Source: Phoronis australis (taxonomy: Eukaryota; Animalia; Phoronida). From it: a stretch of DNA of 64,000 nt. The stretch spans positions 750,948 to 814,947 of the forward strand of contig NMRA01000154.1 in NCBI GenBank assembly GCA_002633005.1, given 5' to 3'. A program made the translations under genes and the position numbers. The notes beneath the pieces were generated by a model, which searched no databases, had not been told where the DNA came from, and worked only from the letters and a program-made list of their open reading frames with translations. Positions 38,956-63,900 of the stretch are shown piece by piece. How positions within the stretch are numbered: position 1 is the first letter of the stretch; each line of letters begins with the position of its first letter.

Positions 38956-40392
38956 GTAAATTGGGCAACGGTTCATGCTTCACGTGACACACATGCACTA
39001 ACACGTGAATGGAGATGGGGCTGCTTCACATATCACACCAGTGGCGGATCTAGGATATCATATGGGGGCCTAAGAATTTGTGACGGGAGCGTGGGAGCAC
39101 CCAGCCTAACATATAGGGAGGCTCGGATGTGGACGACGAAAAAAAAACGGGAAACCGGTTGCGCAACTACACGCATTGTTAACTTTCCTGTCAGTCGCAC
39201 GTTAATTGCCAGGGTTAGTTAATAAACTCAATTAATTTCCTCACGGTCCTGCTGTTTTATTTTTTCTGGCAGCCGTGTGTGTGCATAGGCGGATTTGGGG
39301 GACCCTGGAGACCCGGGCGCCCCCTAAATCCACCTATGCACACACATGTACACTAGCACAGGAATAGAAGTGGTGTTGATTCACATATCACACTTACGGT
39401 TACAAGTATGTGAATAGAGCTGTAGTTCCCAGTCATCTAAATGGTGATTGAGTTGCTGCTTCACGTATCACGCATACCCCCATACTGTATTCTACATTCA
39501 AAAATATATTAAGCATTCATCGACATTGTCTACCGTAGTAGTTACTCATTTTCTCATTCAATGGATGGCTGGTTTTATGACTCTTAACACTAAAATTGAG
39601 TTTGTGCGTAGCGCCATCTATGTCTGAAAAATATTTACCTCATCAGGCCCATACAAAAAATTGATACAGAGTTTCAACGGACTTTGGGTATTTGACATCT
39701 GGTGAGTAATTCTGTAAAGACAACTGCGTGGGATTATTTCGAACTCAAGAGCTGTTCCCCATTTTTTTCAAATATTTGAAACCTTTATTTATTGTGGAGG
39801 AATATAGTAAATGAATTCCAGAAAGAGTGTGACTATAACACATTTTAAACGAGTTCTCCAAAATTATTAATTGATACATATGTACACCATTGGCAGCCAC
39901 ATACAATAGTTGTTTCTTAGATAGCCAAATGATAATTCTTAGCAAATAAAGTTAGATTACAGAAATAGTTGCCAGCTCAGAATGTTGTCTAATAATTTTC
40001 AAAGCTCTGAACATTGTTGTAGCACTTTTTGTGATGTTTTGTATTTACTTTTCAAAAGCTGGTGGCCTAGAAATAAATCAATAAATATATATATAGATTT
40101 CACAGTATGCTGAATAACTCTTATTGTCCATATGTGTTATCCATATTTGACTGCAGTTTTCTTTATCAGTGTTGTACATTGTAGTTCGCTACGTGTCATT
40201 TACCTGTCTTTGTCATAATTTTTTTTCATGTAAGGTTATTATTCATTTAATTACGTTTTATTGCGGTATCGGGTATGCTTTTAACCAGAGTACCAGGGAG
40301 AACGGTGACTCTAAATAGCGGTTGATGTAGCGACAACCCAGTCTAAATCAATAATCAATCAAATCCTATCAATCACCAATTCTCTTTTGTAG

Positions 40393-51011: not shown

Positions 51012-51735
51012 TGTCCCTTACATATAGGGGTAGAGGGGTGTAACATGTATTGGTAGAGGGGTATCACTTACGTGTATTGGTAGAGGGTGTCCCTTACATG
51101 TATTGGTGGAGGGGTGTCCGTTACGTGTATTGTTAGAGGGGTATCCCTTACGTGTATTGGTAGAAGGTGTCACATATATTGGTAGAAGGTGTCCCTTACT
51201 TGTATTGATAGAGGGTGTCCCTCACATGTATTGGTTTGGGGTGTCCCTCACATGTATGGTAGATGGGTGTCCCTTAATGCATTGGTAGAGGGATATCCCT
51301 TACGTGTATTGGTTGAGGGGTATCCCTTACGTGTATTGGTAGAGGGGTGTCCCTTACGTTACGTGTATTGGTAGAGAGGTGTCCGTTACGTGTATTGGTA
51401 GAGGGTTGTCCCTTACATTATTGATAGAGGGGTGGCCCTTACACATGTATTGATAGAGGGTGTCCCATATGTGTATTGGTAGAGGGGTGTCCATTACGTG
51501 TATTGGTAGAGGGGTGTCCCTTACATGTATTGATAGAGGGGTGTCCCTTACATGTATTGATAGAGGGTGCCCCTTATGTGTATTGGTAGAGGGGTGTCCA
51601 TTACGTGTATTGGTAGAGGGGCGTCCCTTACATGTATTGGTAGAGGGGCGTCCCTTACGTGTATTAGTGGAAAGGTGTCCCTTACATAATTTTGTTGATG
51701 GAGAAGTGTCCCTTACGTACATTGGTAGAGGGGTT
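51012..51735. repeat. 26-27-bp minisatellite (tgtcccttacgtgtattggtagagggg), roughly 27 units
   Basis: Direct reading. It generates the spurious repetitive ORFs (VLVEGCPLR). Confidence 0.95.
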
Positions 51736-52255
51736 TACCTAGCATGTAAAGGGTTTCTTTACTGGCACGTGTCTGAAACTGCATGGTTTTATGCCCTTTG
51801 TCTATTTTTAGAATACTTTAATCACATGGATTATTTCATTGTAATATTTAGGGCTTGGTTTGTTAACTTTTCTAAAGAATATTAACCACTGAGGAACAAC
51901 CGTAGTACGTCTACTGATGATTTTTGTATATTAGACACCGAACTTCCATGACTGTGCAGCTATGTCTCCATCTGTGAGATCTTTGTGAATTATGACAATT
52001 GTATTCCTTTGAATGTGTGAACATATCAAAGCTTCTTTTTGACATATCTGATTACTGCTGTGCCTTGTGGTGACGATTTTATTTTTTACCTCTGTCTCTG
52101 CATTTTGGAGTTCCATTTGGGATTTTCATAAAATTTGGCTTAAATAGGCTTGACTCCATTAGGGAGATGAAATTTTCTCATTTTCAGATGGCTTCAATAT
52201 ATTCTGTGCCCCTAGTTCAGATCTACACGATATCCTCTCAAATTAGCAAAATCCA

Positions 52256-57161: not shown

Positions 57162-57341
57162 AATGGTGGAACTGCCATTGCCAACAACAACACTGACGAA
57201 AAGGAAACCACTCTAACAGAAGTTACACCTATGGACAGGGAACTGGAAGACATTATCACAGGAGTTGTCTCAGTTGATTTTGAGACACGCGAAGGAACTG
57301 CTAAGATGGACAAAGATTTCAAATTTGCTCAAGGAAAACTG
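57162..57341 (+). CDS. SLC8A: NCX CBD1 insertion plus strands C-D (...ITGVVSVDFETREGTAKMDKDFKFAQGKL)
   Basis: ttttccttttctcag| acceptor, CTG|gtaagc donor, 180 nt, phase 0->0. Calx-beta motif V.VDF.T..GTA....DF....G.L. Confidence 0.92.
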
Positions 57342-57714: not shown

Positions 57715-58875
57715 TATGTGCCACCTCCCCCCCAGGCTTTATATTGCCGTCATAAGCTCTGTTTGGGCATCTGGTGTAGGCTGTTGTATCTCCTAAATTC
57801 CTTGCCCGATTTTCATGAGATTCAGTAGAGTCGACGTGTTCCTTTGAAGCTAACTGCAGATGAGTTTCGGACTGAACCGATTGCTGCTGTTACCCCTTAG
57901 TAGCAGATTTGGTTTTTTAACTTTGCTTCTGTTTCTACCAAGTTCCTTGACAGCTTTTTTCAAAAAATGGCAAACAGGTTTCTACTGAAACACCAGCAGC
58001 TTTCGAATGCATTTGACGATTTTCAACCCCTGTCGGTCATCTTAATTTATTTTTAGTCTGCTTCTCTATTTGCCAAATCCCTTGAAGGCCATGATTGGGA
58101 AGTTTGGAAGATATATTCTTATTGAGGAGAGCACTTCTGACATTGATTTTTCGACAGGTATTGCTACTGTGGTGTCCCCTAGTGGCAATTTTTCTTTTTG
58201 CCTTGTTTTAGTAGTGCCTCAGTATCTACTAAGTTTGTTGATGGACCCGAGTATTGTGCTGTTTCCTTGTGGAAATTATGATTTTCTTTACATCTGCCTC
58301 AGTATTTACCAACTTCCTTCTATGGAACTTGGTGTAATAGAGCATATGTGCTCCTACACTCCTTATTCTGAAAATTGTATCTCGTATAATGGTTCCAGAT
58401 TTTAGTTAATATATGTCTTATACAAGGATGGTAGTATGTTCCCATTTTTGGATGGATATAAAGTATTCTGTGCTCCTTGTGACCAATTTTTTATTACTTT
58501 TACCTGCTTCTGTGGCATTTGCTTCTATATAGTCGCCAAAGTGCTTGAAGGATCATTTTGAAAATTGACGGGTTTGTTCCTAGTGAGAAGACTGACTTTG
58601 ATATTCAGATGGTTCTATCTATTGTGGCACTCTGTAGGTGCATGTATTTCATCCGCGGCTATATTTCCTTTATCCTTTGTGGGATGTCTGTGGCAAGTGT
58701 TTCCCAGGAATGTGAGAACAACTTTACTTTTGGACATATCTGTGCCCCCTAGTGGCAGTTTAATTTTTTACCACGGCCTGTTTTATTTGACAGATTTTCA
58801 GGAATTACAGAGACAACAACACCTTTTAAACTGTGGAGAGATTTGATTATTCTGTGCCACCTAGTGGCCATTTTT
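57715..58875 (+). repeat. Degenerate subrepeat-rich repeat family (ttcatgaaatttgg / gcc.cctagtggc)
   Basis: The same subrepeats occur at ~22680-23200, ~55190-55440, ~62770-63900 and reversed at ~1037-1370. Confidence 0.6.
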
Positions 58876-59458
58876 AGATTTGTGCATCAATTACCTAAAA
58901 AACCACTGAGTCACTGATCTGTCTTTTCAATCATGCTGTCCTTATCCATTAATTCCCATCACTTACCTATCATCCTGTCATTACCCATTATCAAATTACC
59001 TAACAAACTCTTACTAGATATAAATTTCACGATTCTCTTGTGTTTGAAGGCTGTTGTTTTTTGCCATCTTATGATGTTAGAGAGTGTGAGATTTTTTATG
59101 TAAATTTGTAATTTTACTTACAGTTAAGTAACTATGTAAGTAAAAGTATGCATAACCTTTAAAATTTCGGTGAGATTAGATGTTACTTAACTTCCATTTT
59201 CCTTCTGAATAATGTGATTTTGAAGAGATTCATTTGAGACTCATTTTAGATGTAAAATATTTTTCTTGTCACGTACACCGCTTTAAGGCAAATGTCTTGA
59301 AGAGCCGGTCAAATGCTGTTAAAAGACGTCAAGTAAATGCAACTATTTTTGTTGAATCTCGTACTCTCTTCTACTCATTAAGAGATCCTGTAGTATGTCA
59401 TTTAATTGTTGTGTTTCTATGGGTGAGTTTGATGACCAGAGAGATTCCACTGTTTTAG

Positions 59459-59621
59459 ATTTTCCACGAGGAAGAATTCTGTAAAACCATCTCCATACCC
59501 ATAGTGGCTGATCACCAGTGGGAGGGAGACAATGAGTTTTACGTTATTTTGAAAAACCCACAAGGTGACTCGGGCCTTGGGGACCCCAGTGTTACACGCG
59601 TCCTGATTATTGATGATGACG
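59459..59621 (+). CDS. SLC8A: NCX CBD1 strands E-G, mutually exclusive exon 'A' (IFHEEEFCKTISIPIVADHQWEGDNEFYVILKNPQGDSGLGDPSVTRVLIIDDD)
   Basis: ctgttttag| acceptor, ACG|gtaggt donor, 163 nt, phase 0->1. Calx-beta C-terminal half ending in IIDDD. Confidence 0.92.
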
Positions 59622-59893
59622 GTAGGTGCAGACATGGTTTGAAAAGATCGCTTGATCGGCTTGGGTATGAGCAACTTCAAATTTAGCAAGCCAAGTGATT
59701 TTTATCAAAATAACTTTTTAGCTGCCGTAGTTGTGTTGAGCACCAATTGGTGCATTATACTGGCAGTGAGACTTGTAAAACAGATGGACAGAAATTTTAT
59801 TTTTTTTTTAAGTTGCTCAGGCTTGCTGATTAAGTGACTTGTTTGTTATGAGTTTGTGTGTGTTTTCAAAGATACCACATTTGTTCATTTTAG

Positions 59894-60056
59894 GTATTTG
59901 CAGAGCACGAGTATAGGAAGACAATTTCGGTTCCGATTATCAACGATTTGAATTTCCATAATAATGTTGAGTTCTACGTTATATTAAAAAATCCCGATGG
60001 GGACGCGGGTATTGGCGACCCAAGCATCACCCGTTGCACAATAGTTGATGATGATG
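59894..60056 (+). CDS. SLC8A: NCX CBD1 strands E-G, mutually exclusive exon 'B' (VFAEHEYRKTISVPIINDLNFHNNVEFYVILKNPDGDAGIGDPSITRCTIVDDD)
   Basis: ttgttcattttag| acceptor, ATG|gtaaga donor. Same length (163 nt) and phases as exon A, 32/54 aa identical by manual alignment. Confidence 0.92.
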
Positions 60057-62769
60057 GTAAGATAGTCCCCAGTTTTGCACTCCTCTATCCAACTTTTCGC
60101 TGTTTTGCCTGTGTGTTTCACCTCTATGCCTTCCCGGGAGTTTCTCTTCACTGTTTTAAATGATTCAGCCCGTGCCTTTGCATACACTGAGCTTTAAATG
60201 CACTCTCCAGGTGTCACTCCTCAGCAATGGTCATAAGATAATCCAATGATTTGGACTTTTGTTACTAATACATAATGTCCGTTTTCTCTCCTCTATGCTT
60301 AGTTCTAAGGAGTGACCCAGGGATACCCACTGTAATTTCGCTCACACACAGTTAACCCAAGGGAGTTGACCTCAAACAATATAACTTTTACTGTTGCTGT
60401 GTTGTATCTCACATATTAAAATACAGAAAGCTGCTCATCTTATATATGTTTGTATGTGAGATTGCCAAATTCTGTTTCCATGGAGTGTCAAATGTATTTA
60501 TAAGGTGTTTATTTTTGCCACATTTTACTTTGGGAAAATGAAAAATGTGGACTACGCTTAATCAAATCTAACTTGAACAGATCTCTGTAAAAATTGTATC
60601 ATCAATCACATTTGACAAACTTATATACTCGTAAGACGCGTTTTGCGTGACTACCTCGGTCTTTACTGAATTCTGTCCCTTCGCACTAGTTGCTTCATCC
60701 TAATGTATGCTCCTCAAGCCAATGAGCTGCGAAAATAGTCACTGGAGAACATCTTCACTTAGTGAAGGTCACATTTTATTGAGCGATGAAACTAACAAGG
60801 TGATGTCACACTGCTGTTATTCCGTTTTGCAACATTCTTGCTGTCTCCACTGCAAGCCTATCTGACTGCCATGCATCATGGGTCCTGGGCATCTAACTGG
60901 ACGCCCTAGCACTAATCTGGACACTCTGGCAAGGACGCCCAATGTATCATTTGGACGCCCACTGTCAATAGGAACCTTTCAAGTTTGGACTAGCACATTG
61001 TAATGAATATTAGGAAGCCTCTGAAGGCTCAAAGTGGGGGCTCTTTTTTCAAAGCAGGAAGAAATATACAATGTATATACAAAGTATATATATTGTTGCT
61101 TTGCTCACACTTGGTAGATAGCATTGTAAAAGTCTTGGTCTACAGTTTTTTTTTAGTAAAAGTGCTCACTAGAGAAGGCTGTTTGTAAACTTAAATGTAA
61201 AAACCATGGTCTTTGCATTTTTTAAAAAAATCTGTGTGTTTAGGGGGATTACTTGGGGTGGGGGGTTACGCGTCGGAATCATGGATGCCCTGCAATATTG
61301 GGAACCCCATTTTGGACACCCTATTTTCGAAATCCTGGATAAAGGCCTGCTGACAGCACCACAATAGCTTAGGCTTTTGCTGGTGTTAGAAGGTAGAATG
61401 CAGTTGAATTTACACAAAAATAAAATTAATGTAAGGTCTGTAACTCAGCATAGTGGAACTCGGCCAATAAAACTATCTCAACACACACAAGTGTGAGACC
61501 CTCAGCAGAGACTAGCTGTATACAACAATGTGATGATAGACAGCACACTTTTGGAGAGCTTAGTTTGATTTCAGAATGAAGCTCATCCTTAGCAATCCTT
61601 TGGCAAAGTAATTTCTGTATCCTCATTTAACACACTCCCTTCCACACAGTGCAATGTCCTACACATACCTTGCTTTCATTTCCTTTCTTTTAGTCACGCT
61701 CTCAAAACTCAAGGGTAATAATCCTTTCTGTAGTTATTGAGTACATAGTATGTGCTTTTAAGACCTAGTAGTCATTGGTATAGTCTTGGTGTTACATGTG
61801 ACAGGGACGGATATGATTAGTTTAAGGATGGGGGCGTCACTAATATCTCTATGGTGCATCCTGTCATTATCATCTGTGTGAAATGATCCCTCAGAGTCAA
61901 CTATGTGGAGTATCCCCCGTCGTCATCTACTCTCAACCAGGCTATTTCAGTTACTGAGTTTAGTTTAAGAATATGCAACTGCATAAGGCCAAAAAGCATA
62001 AGTGATTCTGGTATTTTTTCTTGCTCGTTAATAATTTTAAAACTAAGGAAAATGCACCTGAGGTTAAACCAAAATGACGAGGGATTTTTGTTAATTTTGC
62101 CCATTGTTTTGTACATCATGGTCTTCAAAACATGGCTTGTTCTTGCTGACTGGCTTTTGTGCATCTTTTTAAAAAAGCACAAGACCAGTAGGCTGACATT
62201 GATGGGGCAAGCATTTTTTTCTTAGTCGATGAGTACTGGTCTCAAAGTGAGTCGGATTAACGACCAGAACCAACCAATGCTTTTTTGGCCTAAAATCAGA
62301 TATGGTTGTGGGTGTATTGAGTTAATCCGTCCCTGTTCACTTTGCTATATAGTTGTATCTGGGTTACCATAGTAACTTTTAGAAAGCATTGCTATTCAAT
62401 TCTAGATGTATATAGCTGAAACTCGCTAAGCATTGATGTGTAGAGTTTGATTAGAATACATTTTAGCACTTGCTTGTTAGATTTTATTGAATGATGTGTT
62501 GTGATGAAGGCGTAATTAGTTATTTTAACTAAAATGTTATTGGTTTGATGTGTAGATGACACCAGCTTGCAAGTTTTAGTAAAATGGACAAGACATAGAT
62601 CTGTCATTATCTTGCAAAAATTGCTACATGTAAACAACGCACTTACTGTGCATTTTTAATTATAATTAATGTTTTAGTCTCATTTTCTTAAATAACACCA
62701 GTGGGATCATATGTTAGATTCTGTTGACTCTAAACTGATTCTGCATTTCAATACATTTTTCAGATACAC

Positions 62770-63900
62770 TTTTATGCGCCTACGATATATGGCGTCATCC
62801 CCATCCATCCGTCCATAAGGCGTCCACTTCTGTATCTTCAATACCCCTTCATGGATTTTGTGAAATTTTGCAGACATGCTTGTGTCATGAATGAGACAAC
62901 ACAAATGAATTGTTTTGACAGATCTGACCACCGCTGTTCCTCCTAATGGCCATTTCATTTTTTTATGTTTGTCTCAGTCTGTAAATTAAAGATCTTTCCT
63001 TGACGAATTTCCATCTGTGACGGATTCAACATAGCACCACTTAGTGGCCATTTTACTGTGGCACCCCGTAGTGGCTGTTTTTGCTAAGACCCCTGCAAGA
63101 TATTTGTTAAATTTGGCAAGTGTATTTCTATGAACGGGACAATGGATAACGGCAACTTTCGGACATAATTGCAGCAACAGTTGTACTTCATCCCTGGTGG
63201 TAATTTTAGTTTTTCACTGTCTTTTGTATATTCAAAATTCCTTGATTAATTTTCATGAAATTTGGCAATAAGTTTACTTTTTTGGATGAATTTGCGCAAA
63301 TAGTGTGCCACCTACTAGCCATTTTTATTATTTTTTTCAAATTTCATTTTGGTGTCTGCCTTCTATCTCCAAACCACTAAGAATTGATAATGAAAATTTA
63401 TTTGGTAATTGTGTTTCTTCTGGAAAGTTCCTGGCAAAACATGATGTTTGGACAGACTTACTGATGTGGTGCCCTCTATTGACAATTTTGTTGTTTTTGC
63501 CTCAGTGGTTCCATATCTACCATGTACCTCAATAGATAGTCTTGAAATTTATACGTGGTTTTATTGAGGAGAATATAAGTGATGCGAATTTTGTGTCAAA
63601 TTTAACTACTGTGGAATCTCCTACAGGCAATGTTTGTCTTTGCGTTTGCCTGAATATCAAGTTCTATGATGCATGTTCATGAAATTTGGCTAATAAGTTA
63701 CTATCATGAACACATCACAAACCCTGTTGCAGACGGATTTGACCTACATTGCCCCCCTACCGGCCTTTTTATTGTTTTTTGTCTGTTCTTTGTTGTCCTC
63801 CCCATAATCTTCCAAACTTTGTGGAGAATCGTGATGAAAATTGACAAGTGTGTTCCTATTAAGGAAAGCATTGCTGACTTCTTTTGCACCCTATAGGGGT
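62770..63900 (+). repeat. Same subrepeat-rich repeat family downstream of exon B
   Basis: Repeated tttcatgaaatttggc and gc.cc.c.tagtggc motifs. Confidence 0.6.

What the first reader, a model, noticed from the sequence alone, without database searches (positions are those of the whole stretch)
59622..59893. Highly structured 272-nt intron between the exclusive exons: two hairpins plus pseudoknot/competing pairing at a candidate branch point
Manual pairing shows four elements. (1) Hairpin 59638-59709 of ~22 bp: GGCTTG 59658-63 with CAAGCC 59687-92, GATCGCTT with AAGTGATT (two G-U), and TTTGAAAA with TTT(A)TCAAA. (2) Its loop holds TGAGCAACTT (59668-77), perfectly complementary to AAGTTGCTCA (59810-19), giving pseudoknot topology. 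(3) The adjacent GGCTTGCTGA (59820-29) can instead pair with TTAGCAAGCC (59683-92), displacing the hairpin and covering a branch-point-like CTGAT (59826-30). (4) A second hairpin 59721-59767 is capped by the palindrome GCACCAATTGGTGC. Known: competing intronic pairings and 5'ss-branch point approximation enforce mutually exclusive splicing in several insect genes (Dscam1, 14-3-3, Mhc). Inference: this is the RNA switch that blocks A->B splicing and/or selects exon B.
Basis: partly seen in the sequence, partly recalled or inferred. Interest (0 to 1): 0.75.

Follow-up and report, generated by a model that had tools for sequence, protein, structure and literature searches.

The report
Competing RNA stems between twin exons
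An invertebrate sodium/calcium-exchanger gene carries two old copies of one exon that break the reading frame if joined, and the short intron between them is predicted to fold in three competing ways that likely help hide the second copy's splice signal, a known kind of control that is untested here.

Summary
The 272-nt intron lies between two diverged 163-nt exons (58% nucleotide identity) for the second half of CBD1 in a lophotrochozoan NCX-like gene; joining both gives a stop 140 nt before the next junction. The intron has more strong helices than chance (3 of 5033 shuffles, 0 of 512 GC-matched windows; post-hoc statistic), though whole-fold stability is only top 4-5%. Three segments (S1, S2, S3) can each pair with the other two; the balance shifts with context and temperature, and two of three states bury the candidate branch A59829. 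Donor-branch-point approximation is not supported. No orthologous intron was found and RNA reads did not reach either exon, so exon use, branch point, conservation and function are all unshown. It works like human ATE1 R3/R4 masking, membership unproven. This scan noted a comparable hairpin before on other DNA (AMPA flop-flip intron), nothing on this locus.

The parts
57162..57341 (+). Upstream exon (first half of Calx-beta/CBD1 strands), ends in phase 0
   Evidence: tblastn of homologues, AG/GT ends and open frame into either A or B; RNA depth 0-2.6
59302..59312 (+). Element U: possible alternative partner of S1 upstream of exon A (weak lead)
   Evidence: 11 bp, -19.8; 3 of 291 to 4 of 114 background windows given S1 but 24 of 60 shuffles unconditioned; p 0.0 in folds
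59459..59621 (+). Exon A, 163 nt (3n+1), second half of CBD1; keeps the EF-loop Glu
   Evidence: Pfam Calx-beta E 1.7e-8; aligns to CALX/NCX1 CBD1; no RNA reads
59622..59893 (+). 272-nt GT-AG intron between A and B (the finding)
   Evidence: sequence, splice-site contexts
59638..59677 (+).
59683..59709 (+). S2: 3' arm of hairpin 1; 59683-92 can instead pair with S3
59721..59767 (+). Hairpin 2, present in all states; shortens the S1-S3 loop
   Evidence: -19.2 kcal/mol; p 0.71-1.0
59800..59809 (+). Run of ten U directly before S3 (possible protein site; inference)
   Evidence: sequence
59810..59837 (+). S3: shared partner of S1 (27 bp, duplex -35.0) and S2 (10 bp, -15.0); contains the candidate branch motif
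59826..59830 (+). Candidate branch motif CTGAT, A59829 at -65; unverified
   Evidence: only yUnAy match between -95 and -7 (consensus recalled); three AGs downstream, 4/7 match like many other A
59848..59888 (+). Weak 3' hairpin covering two of the intervening AGs
   Evidence: p 0.15-0.99 by context
59894..60056 (+). Exon B, 163 nt (3n+1), paralogue of A; His at the EF-loop Glu position; A+B gives TAG at 59914-16
   Evidence: Pfam Calx-beta E 3.5e-6; no RNA reads

Best explanation
The intron separates two frame-incompatible copies of one CBD1 exon, and its three cross-complementary segments likely act as a mask that hides the branch-point region of exon B, so that A is not joined to B and B is used only when the mask is off. 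Shown from sequence: the exon pair, the frameshift and stop when both are joined, and the complementarities. Predicted by folding: hairpin 1 (S1:S2) forms first during transcription and leaves S3 partly open; when S3 emerges, its first 10 nt can bind the hairpin loop and then displace S2 to give the 27-bp S1:S3 stem; S1:S3 and S2:S3 both bury A59829. Inferred: that both exons are used one at a time, that A59829 is the branch point, that U2 or a protein on the U run captures the open state to allow B, and that nonsense-mediated decay clears any A+B leak.
For: Both exons 163 nt with intact AG/GT ends and open frames; differences by codon position 20/9/39 of 54, i.e. both look constrained; 0 of 121 homologues with a strong match hold two copies in one protein. 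Helix content above shuffles and GC-matched windows. Prefix folding: hairpin 1 p 1.0 until 59820, replaced by S1:S3 (p 0.9) at 59835. States within 0.5-2.5 kcal/mol in exon context; balance moves L 0.14-1.0, S2:S3 0-0.86, hairpin 1 0-0.59 across 10 settings, with A59829 buried in 8. Precedent: masking of a 3' splice region by an element of the intervening intron in ATE1 (PMC7797038).
Against: No RNA read on exon A, exon B or the intron in three runs (about 19% of each read; upstream exons only 0-2.6 deep), so use of either exon is unshown. No orthologous intron, hence no conservation or covariation. Branch point weak and distant with three AGs after it; if the real one is near -24 the stems do not cover it. 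Whole-fold stability is matched by 3 of 67 ordinary windows; Watson-Crick-only content is ordinary. No reciprocal element that silences A was established. In Drosophila Rdl exon 3 a predicted conserved structure turned out dispensable (PMC13762713, passages).
Confidence: 0.4

Rival explanations
1. The pairings are incidental (chance in a G+U-rich intron, or a decayed small inverted repeat); the exons are exclusive through splicing factors with frameshift and decay as the filter.
For: A+B gives a stop 140 nt before the junction; 60% of human MXE clusters have lengths not divisible by three (PMC5740500, passages). z -2.42 is reached by 3 of 67 windows. The four best helices reuse the same short words. 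This genome has hairpin-forming repeats.
Against: 0 of 512 GC-matched window-strands match the helix sum; the locus was defined independently by the exon pair; no repeat family at >=90% identity lies on the intron in a whole DNA run (flat depth 6.67-7.49) or elsewhere in the window; sense duplex -35.0 against antisense -18.8, though that asymmetry is partly built in by allowing G-U.
Confidence: 0.35
2. ATE1/srp-like two-sided switch: S1 is a docking site that pairs either with S3 (masks B, A used) or with U upstream of exon A (loops out A, B used).
For: U:S1 11 bp, extended duplex -22.5; nominal 1-3.5% given S1.
Against: Not significant unconditioned (24 of 60); costs 7.4 kcal/mol and S2 then covers the branch A; p 0.0 in 4 of 4 folds that include U; flanks of A and B show no duplication remnant (106 and 121 of 300 shuffles).
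Confidence: 0.1
3. One copy is rarely or never used (silent duplicate), so there is no live switch.
For: No reads on either exon; no homologue isoform with a second exon type among 126 proteins; B has lost the conserved EF-loop Glu and A has 4 residues not seen in 56 homologue peptides.
Against: At 72% third-position divergence both frames and all four splice sites are intact and second positions differ in only 9 of 54.
Confidence: 0.08
4. One reading: structure (with a stable pseudoknot) brings A's donor close to the branch point and blocks A-to-B splicing sterically.
For: In the intron-only fold a basal stem 59628-34:59840-46 (p 0.81-0.85) leaves about 53 nt outside the folded domain; pseudoknot energy could tie with the long stem at a low penalty.
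Against: Basal stem p <=0.03 in all 8 folds with exon sequence; linear distance 207 nt against a ~50-nt threshold (PMC5740500, PMC7969005, passages); pseudoknot not favoured at penalties of 7-9.6.
Confidence: 0.07

Closest known systems
Human ATE1 exons 7a/7b, R1R3/R3R4 competing pairings (PMC7797038; abstract, section 14 and passages read)
   Same: An element in the intron between two exclusive exons pairs with the region upstream of the second exon's acceptor; competing pairings; kinetic dependence plausible.
   Different: ATE1's R1 and R4 are similar, conserved and overlap both acceptors; here the competitor S2 lies in the same intron, S3 ends 57 nt before the acceptor, an R1 equivalent is only a weak lead, and nothing is shown conserved or functional.
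Docking site/selector clusters: Dscam1 exons 4/6/9, 14-3-3zeta, Mhc, MRP; srp bidirectional pairing (PMC6071210 part 1 of 5 read; PMC4691838 passages)
   Same: Tandem duplicated exons with competing intronic complementarity.
   Different: Those pairings span exons and loop them out; all three strong pairings here lie within one intron and loop out no exon.
Dscam exon 17 and OGDH 4a/4b steric or distant-branch-point exclusion (Dscam 17 paper not held, seen only as title and a citing sentence; PMC7969005 passages)
   Same: Two-exon cluster, short intervening intron, branch point possibly inside a hairpin.
   Different: OGDH branch points are 25-41 nt from the donor; here the candidate is 207 nt away.
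Vertebrate NCX1/NCX3 exons A/B (PMC9820601, passages)
   Same: Exclusive exons that change residues in a Calx-beta Ca2+-binding loop of a Na/Ca exchanger.
   Different: Vertebrate A/B are in CBD2; this pair is in CBD1, in a separate invertebrate clade, so it would be an independent duplication.

Membership tests
Mutually exclusive exon pair | Tandem homologous exons of equal length and phase for the same protein segment | tested here: met
   163 nt each, 59% aa identity, both Calx-beta second half
Mutually exclusive exon pair | Each exon found spliced alone, A+B absent or rare | tested here: inconclusive
   0 depth on both exons in 3 of 3 RNA runs with upstream exons at 0-2.6
Frameshift/NMD-backed exclusion | Joint inclusion creates a stop well upstream of a later junction | tested here: met
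   TAG 59914-16, 140 nt before B's end; decay itself not tested
Competing-structure MXE (ATE1, Dscam, 14-3-3, Mhc type) | One element complementary to two or more others, mutually incompatible | tested here: met
   S1:S2, S1:S3, S2:S3
Competing-structure MXE (ATE1, Dscam, 14-3-3, Mhc type) | Each alternative pairing is tied to a different exon (one selector per exon) | tested here: inconclusive
   Only B-side masking is evident; U is weak; downstream intron incomplete
Competing-structure MXE (ATE1, Dscam, 14-3-3, Mhc type) | Conservation or compensatory change across species | not testable with these tools
   No genome held, no orthologous locus found
Competing-structure MXE (ATE1, Dscam, 14-3-3, Mhc type) | Disrupt-and-rescue mutants change exon choice | not testable with these tools
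   Bench experiment
Steric-interference MXE | Branch point within about 50 nt of the upstream donor | tested here: not met
   Candidate 207 nt away; shortening basal stem not robust; true branch point unmapped, and a weak yUnAy match at 59655 lies 33 nt from the donor
Known structured RNA family (Rfam) | Match at gathering score | tested here: not met
   2 chance-level hits, none in the intron
Young MITE/inverted-repeat family | Multiple genomic copies | tested here: not met
   Flat single-contig depth at >=90% identity, no copy in the window; older decayed copies not excluded

The most novel reading that the evidence does not exclude
A self-contained three-strand RNA switch inside one 272-nt intron, reset by toehold-mediated strand displacement during transcription and sensitive to temperature, sets the choice between two CBD1 exons that keep or lose a central Ca2+-ligand glutamate, giving a lophotrochozoan exchanger an independently evolved splice switch in its primary calcium sensor.
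Probability: 0.13. Interest if true: 0.72.

Novelty: new member of a known kind. Interest (0 to 1): 0.36.

Why it matters
If real, it would extend structure-controlled exclusive splicing to a lophotrochozoan, in a unit small enough (about 600 nt) for a complete minigene and probing test, and show a second, independent exon swap in an NCX calcium-binding domain, in CBD1 rather than the vertebrate CBD2. My searches listed no paper on such a pair, by title and abstract start only. If the structure is incidental, what remains is an ordinary duplicated exon pair with an interesting residue swap.

Tried and rejected
No whole genome held. Run search: no RNA holder listed; three RNA runs came only by species label. 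Laying them gave no reads on A, B or the intron, so junctions, lariats and editing could not be seen; a second lay for allelic variants and an older RNA assembly gave no result, so polymorphism in the stems is unknown. Metagenome scan with the exon profile: 376 stretches, none confirmed. Metagenome scan with a 20-nt intron word: 1 locus (L001), no flanking similarity, judged chance. Exon-profile protein search: 25 hits of 60 candidates, none with a second exon type. Exon peptide tree unresolved, A and B not grouped, so the duplication is not dated. Rfam: nothing. Flanking docking sites: 0 of 10 region pairs better than shuffles. Strand-neutral G-U versus A-C test: 2 G-U, 0 A-C, 2 other, too few. 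One search used a wrong upstream exon end (57343) and its frame test is void; redone. The permissive helix statistic chained unrelated stems and was replaced. The Dscam exon 17 paper was not held. No structure or complex prediction was run, since it would not bear on the intron. No supplements were read.

Full report
Setting. The window holds the 5' two thirds of a + strand Na/Ca-exchanger-like gene (Pfam Na_Ca_ex and Calx-beta). Best protein relatives are 59-68% identical over the first coding exon and come from molluscs, a brachiopod, amphioxus, annelids, nemerteans and echinoderms. In a tree of that exon with 35 of the 126 proteins fetched (hand-picked to cover the named taxa), the window's row pairs with a bryozoan (98/91; both branches long) inside a 15-row lophotrochozoan set. 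Exons found by tblastn end with 57162-57341, then two homologous exons A (59459-59621) and B (59894-60056); the next exon lies beyond the window. No genome is held.

The exon pair. A and B are both 163 nt, 59% identical in protein and 58% in DNA, with differences at codon positions 1/2/3 of 20/9/39 of 54: an old duplication with both copies apparently constrained (inference). Each continues the upstream frame; joined, they give TAG at 59914-16, 140 nt before B's end. They encode the second half of CBD1, by alignment of a homologue to NCX1 and of exon A to CALX CBD1. Of 126 proteins, 121 match exon A strongly and none has two copies; 12 Haliotis isoform clusters (P0002-P0013) all carry one version. 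In the EF loop 39 of 56 distinct homologue peptides have Glu at position 22; A keeps it, B has His. That position aligns with NCX1 E451 (numbering recalled), which PMC9820601 (passages) says helps ligate several Ca2+ ions; the vertebrate A/B exons are in CBD2. This clade mostly has N-D-N where NCX1 has D-D-D, so its Ca2+ binding is itself unknown.

The observation. The whole intron folds at -73.1 kcal/mol, z -2.42, 6 of 200 shuffles; the antisense strand gives -1.94. Among 67 other windows of this gene 3 reach that z, and 2 of 46 GC-matched ones that energy. The summed energy of the four best uninterrupted helices is rarer: 3 of 5033 shuffles, 0 of 512 GC-matched window-strands, 23 of 918 overall, the top ones mostly GC-richer windows. 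This statistic was chosen after two others (3 of 300; 8 of 595), and a Watson-Crick-only count is ordinary (1981 of 10826). The excess is real but modest and rests on G-U pairs.

Three segments are mutually complementary: S1 (59638-77), S2 (59683-709) and S3 (59810-37). In the intron alone S1:S3 dominates (p 0.97-0.98); with exons the three states lie within 0.5-2.5 kcal/mol, and over five sequence contexts at 20 and 37 C the shares run 0.14-1.0 (S1:S3), 0-0.86 (S2:S3) and 0-0.59 (hairpin 1). Hairpin 2 is present throughout. A59829 is unpaired at p <=0.05 in 8 of 10 settings and 0.22-0.24 in the other two; forced hairpin 1 opens it to about 0.4-0.6. Folding of growing prefixes has hairpin 1 at p 1.0 until S3 appears and S1:S3 at 0.9 once it has. 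The direct path from hairpin 1 to the long stem has a barrier of 15.8 kcal/mol without pseudoknots; a hairpin-plus-loop pseudoknot is estimated at -74.5 to -80.1 against -79.9 for the long stem under assumed penalties of 9.6 to 4. Because the loop partner is the first part of S3 to be transcribed, the pseudoknot reads most naturally as a toehold intermediate (inference).

Weak links. The branch point is unmapped. CTGAT is the only yUnAy match (consensus recalled) between -95 and -7, but it is at -65, has three AGs after it and matches the long consensus at 4 of 7 like many other adenines, one at -24. Approximation of donor and branch point is not supported: the basal stem that would do it exists only when exons are left out (0.54-0.85 against <=0.03). 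None of 10 region pairs among flanking introns and exons gave a helix better than shuffles. One element, U (59302-12), pairs with S1 at a nominal 1-3.5% given S1, but costs 7.4 kcal/mol and leaves the branch A covered by S2. The flanks of A and B keep no trace of shared origin, so the duplication model of PMC6071210 (part 1 of 5 read) cannot be checked.

Expression and conservation. Three RNA runs with the same species label, 18-19% of each read, gave depth 0-2.6 on upstream exons and 0 from 59071 to 60278: too shallow to show either exon, a junction, a lariat or editing. A DNA run has one contig over 58885-60400 without differences and no repeat family on the intron at >=90% identity. No orthologous intron was found, so covariation, the standard evidence for such elements, is missing.

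Mechanism. Most likely (0.40) the segments mask B's branch region, B is used when the early hairpin or a protein keeps S3 open, and frameshift-triggered decay removes leaks. Nearly as likely (0.35) the pairings are incidental and exclusivity comes from proteins and decay; 60% of human clusters are frame-incompatible (PMC5740500, passages), and a predicted structure at Drosophila Rdl exon 3 proved dispensable (PMC13762713, passages). Lesser rivals: an ATE1-like two-sided switch through U (0.10), a silent duplicate (0.08), steric approximation (0.07).

Comparison and novelty. It works most like ATE1 R3/R4 (PMC7797038; abstract, section 14, passages) and differs from Dscam1, 14-3-3zeta, Mhc and srp, whose pairings span exons. 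Membership of the competing-structure class is unproven: complementarity is met, one-selector-per-exon is inconclusive, conservation and mutational rescue are untestable here. Seven literature searches listed no report of this exon pair; only titles, abstract starts and the cited passages were seen, and the library lacks most subscription papers. Earlier notes of this scan hold nothing on this locus and one comparable hairpin in the AMPA flop-flip intron. Verdict: real, moderately unusual, a candidate new member of a known kind; interest 0.36.

Noticed in passing
window 59459-59621 and 59894-60056: The exon swap falls in CBD1 and changes the EF loop (A keeps the conserved Glu, B has His; A has Ala at the conserved Asn), unlike vertebrate NCX where exclusive exons are in CBD2. 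Possibly more interesting than the intron fold.
   Followed up: partly
window 58150-58880 and about 62870-63330: High-copy repeat family with a CCACCTAGTGG-like core (resembles a CTCF motif, recalled); depth up to 4224 in DNA run X1 and present in RNA reads.
   Followed up: no
window about 39275-39345: Strong GC-rich hairpin in an intron (window z -9.5), probably a small inverted-repeat element.
   Followed up: partly
window 60206-60235 and 60294-60323: 30-nt, 70% complementary inverted pair 150 nt downstream of exon B.
   Followed up: no
window 59543-59556 with 59701-59714: 14-nt inverted pair (93%) between exon A and the end of S2, which would loop over A's donor.
   Followed up: no
window 59649, 59723, 59814, 59824; 59855: Four YGCY words in the stems and a UG run near the acceptor; MBNL- and CELF-type sites by recall only.
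   Followed up: no
window about 51137-51880: Tandem repeat region giving long open frames on both strands and the strongest helix scores in the window.
   Followed up: no
L001 2001-2020: Exact 20-nt match to S3 in an unrelated metagenome contig, no flanking similarity; chance.
   Followed up: yes
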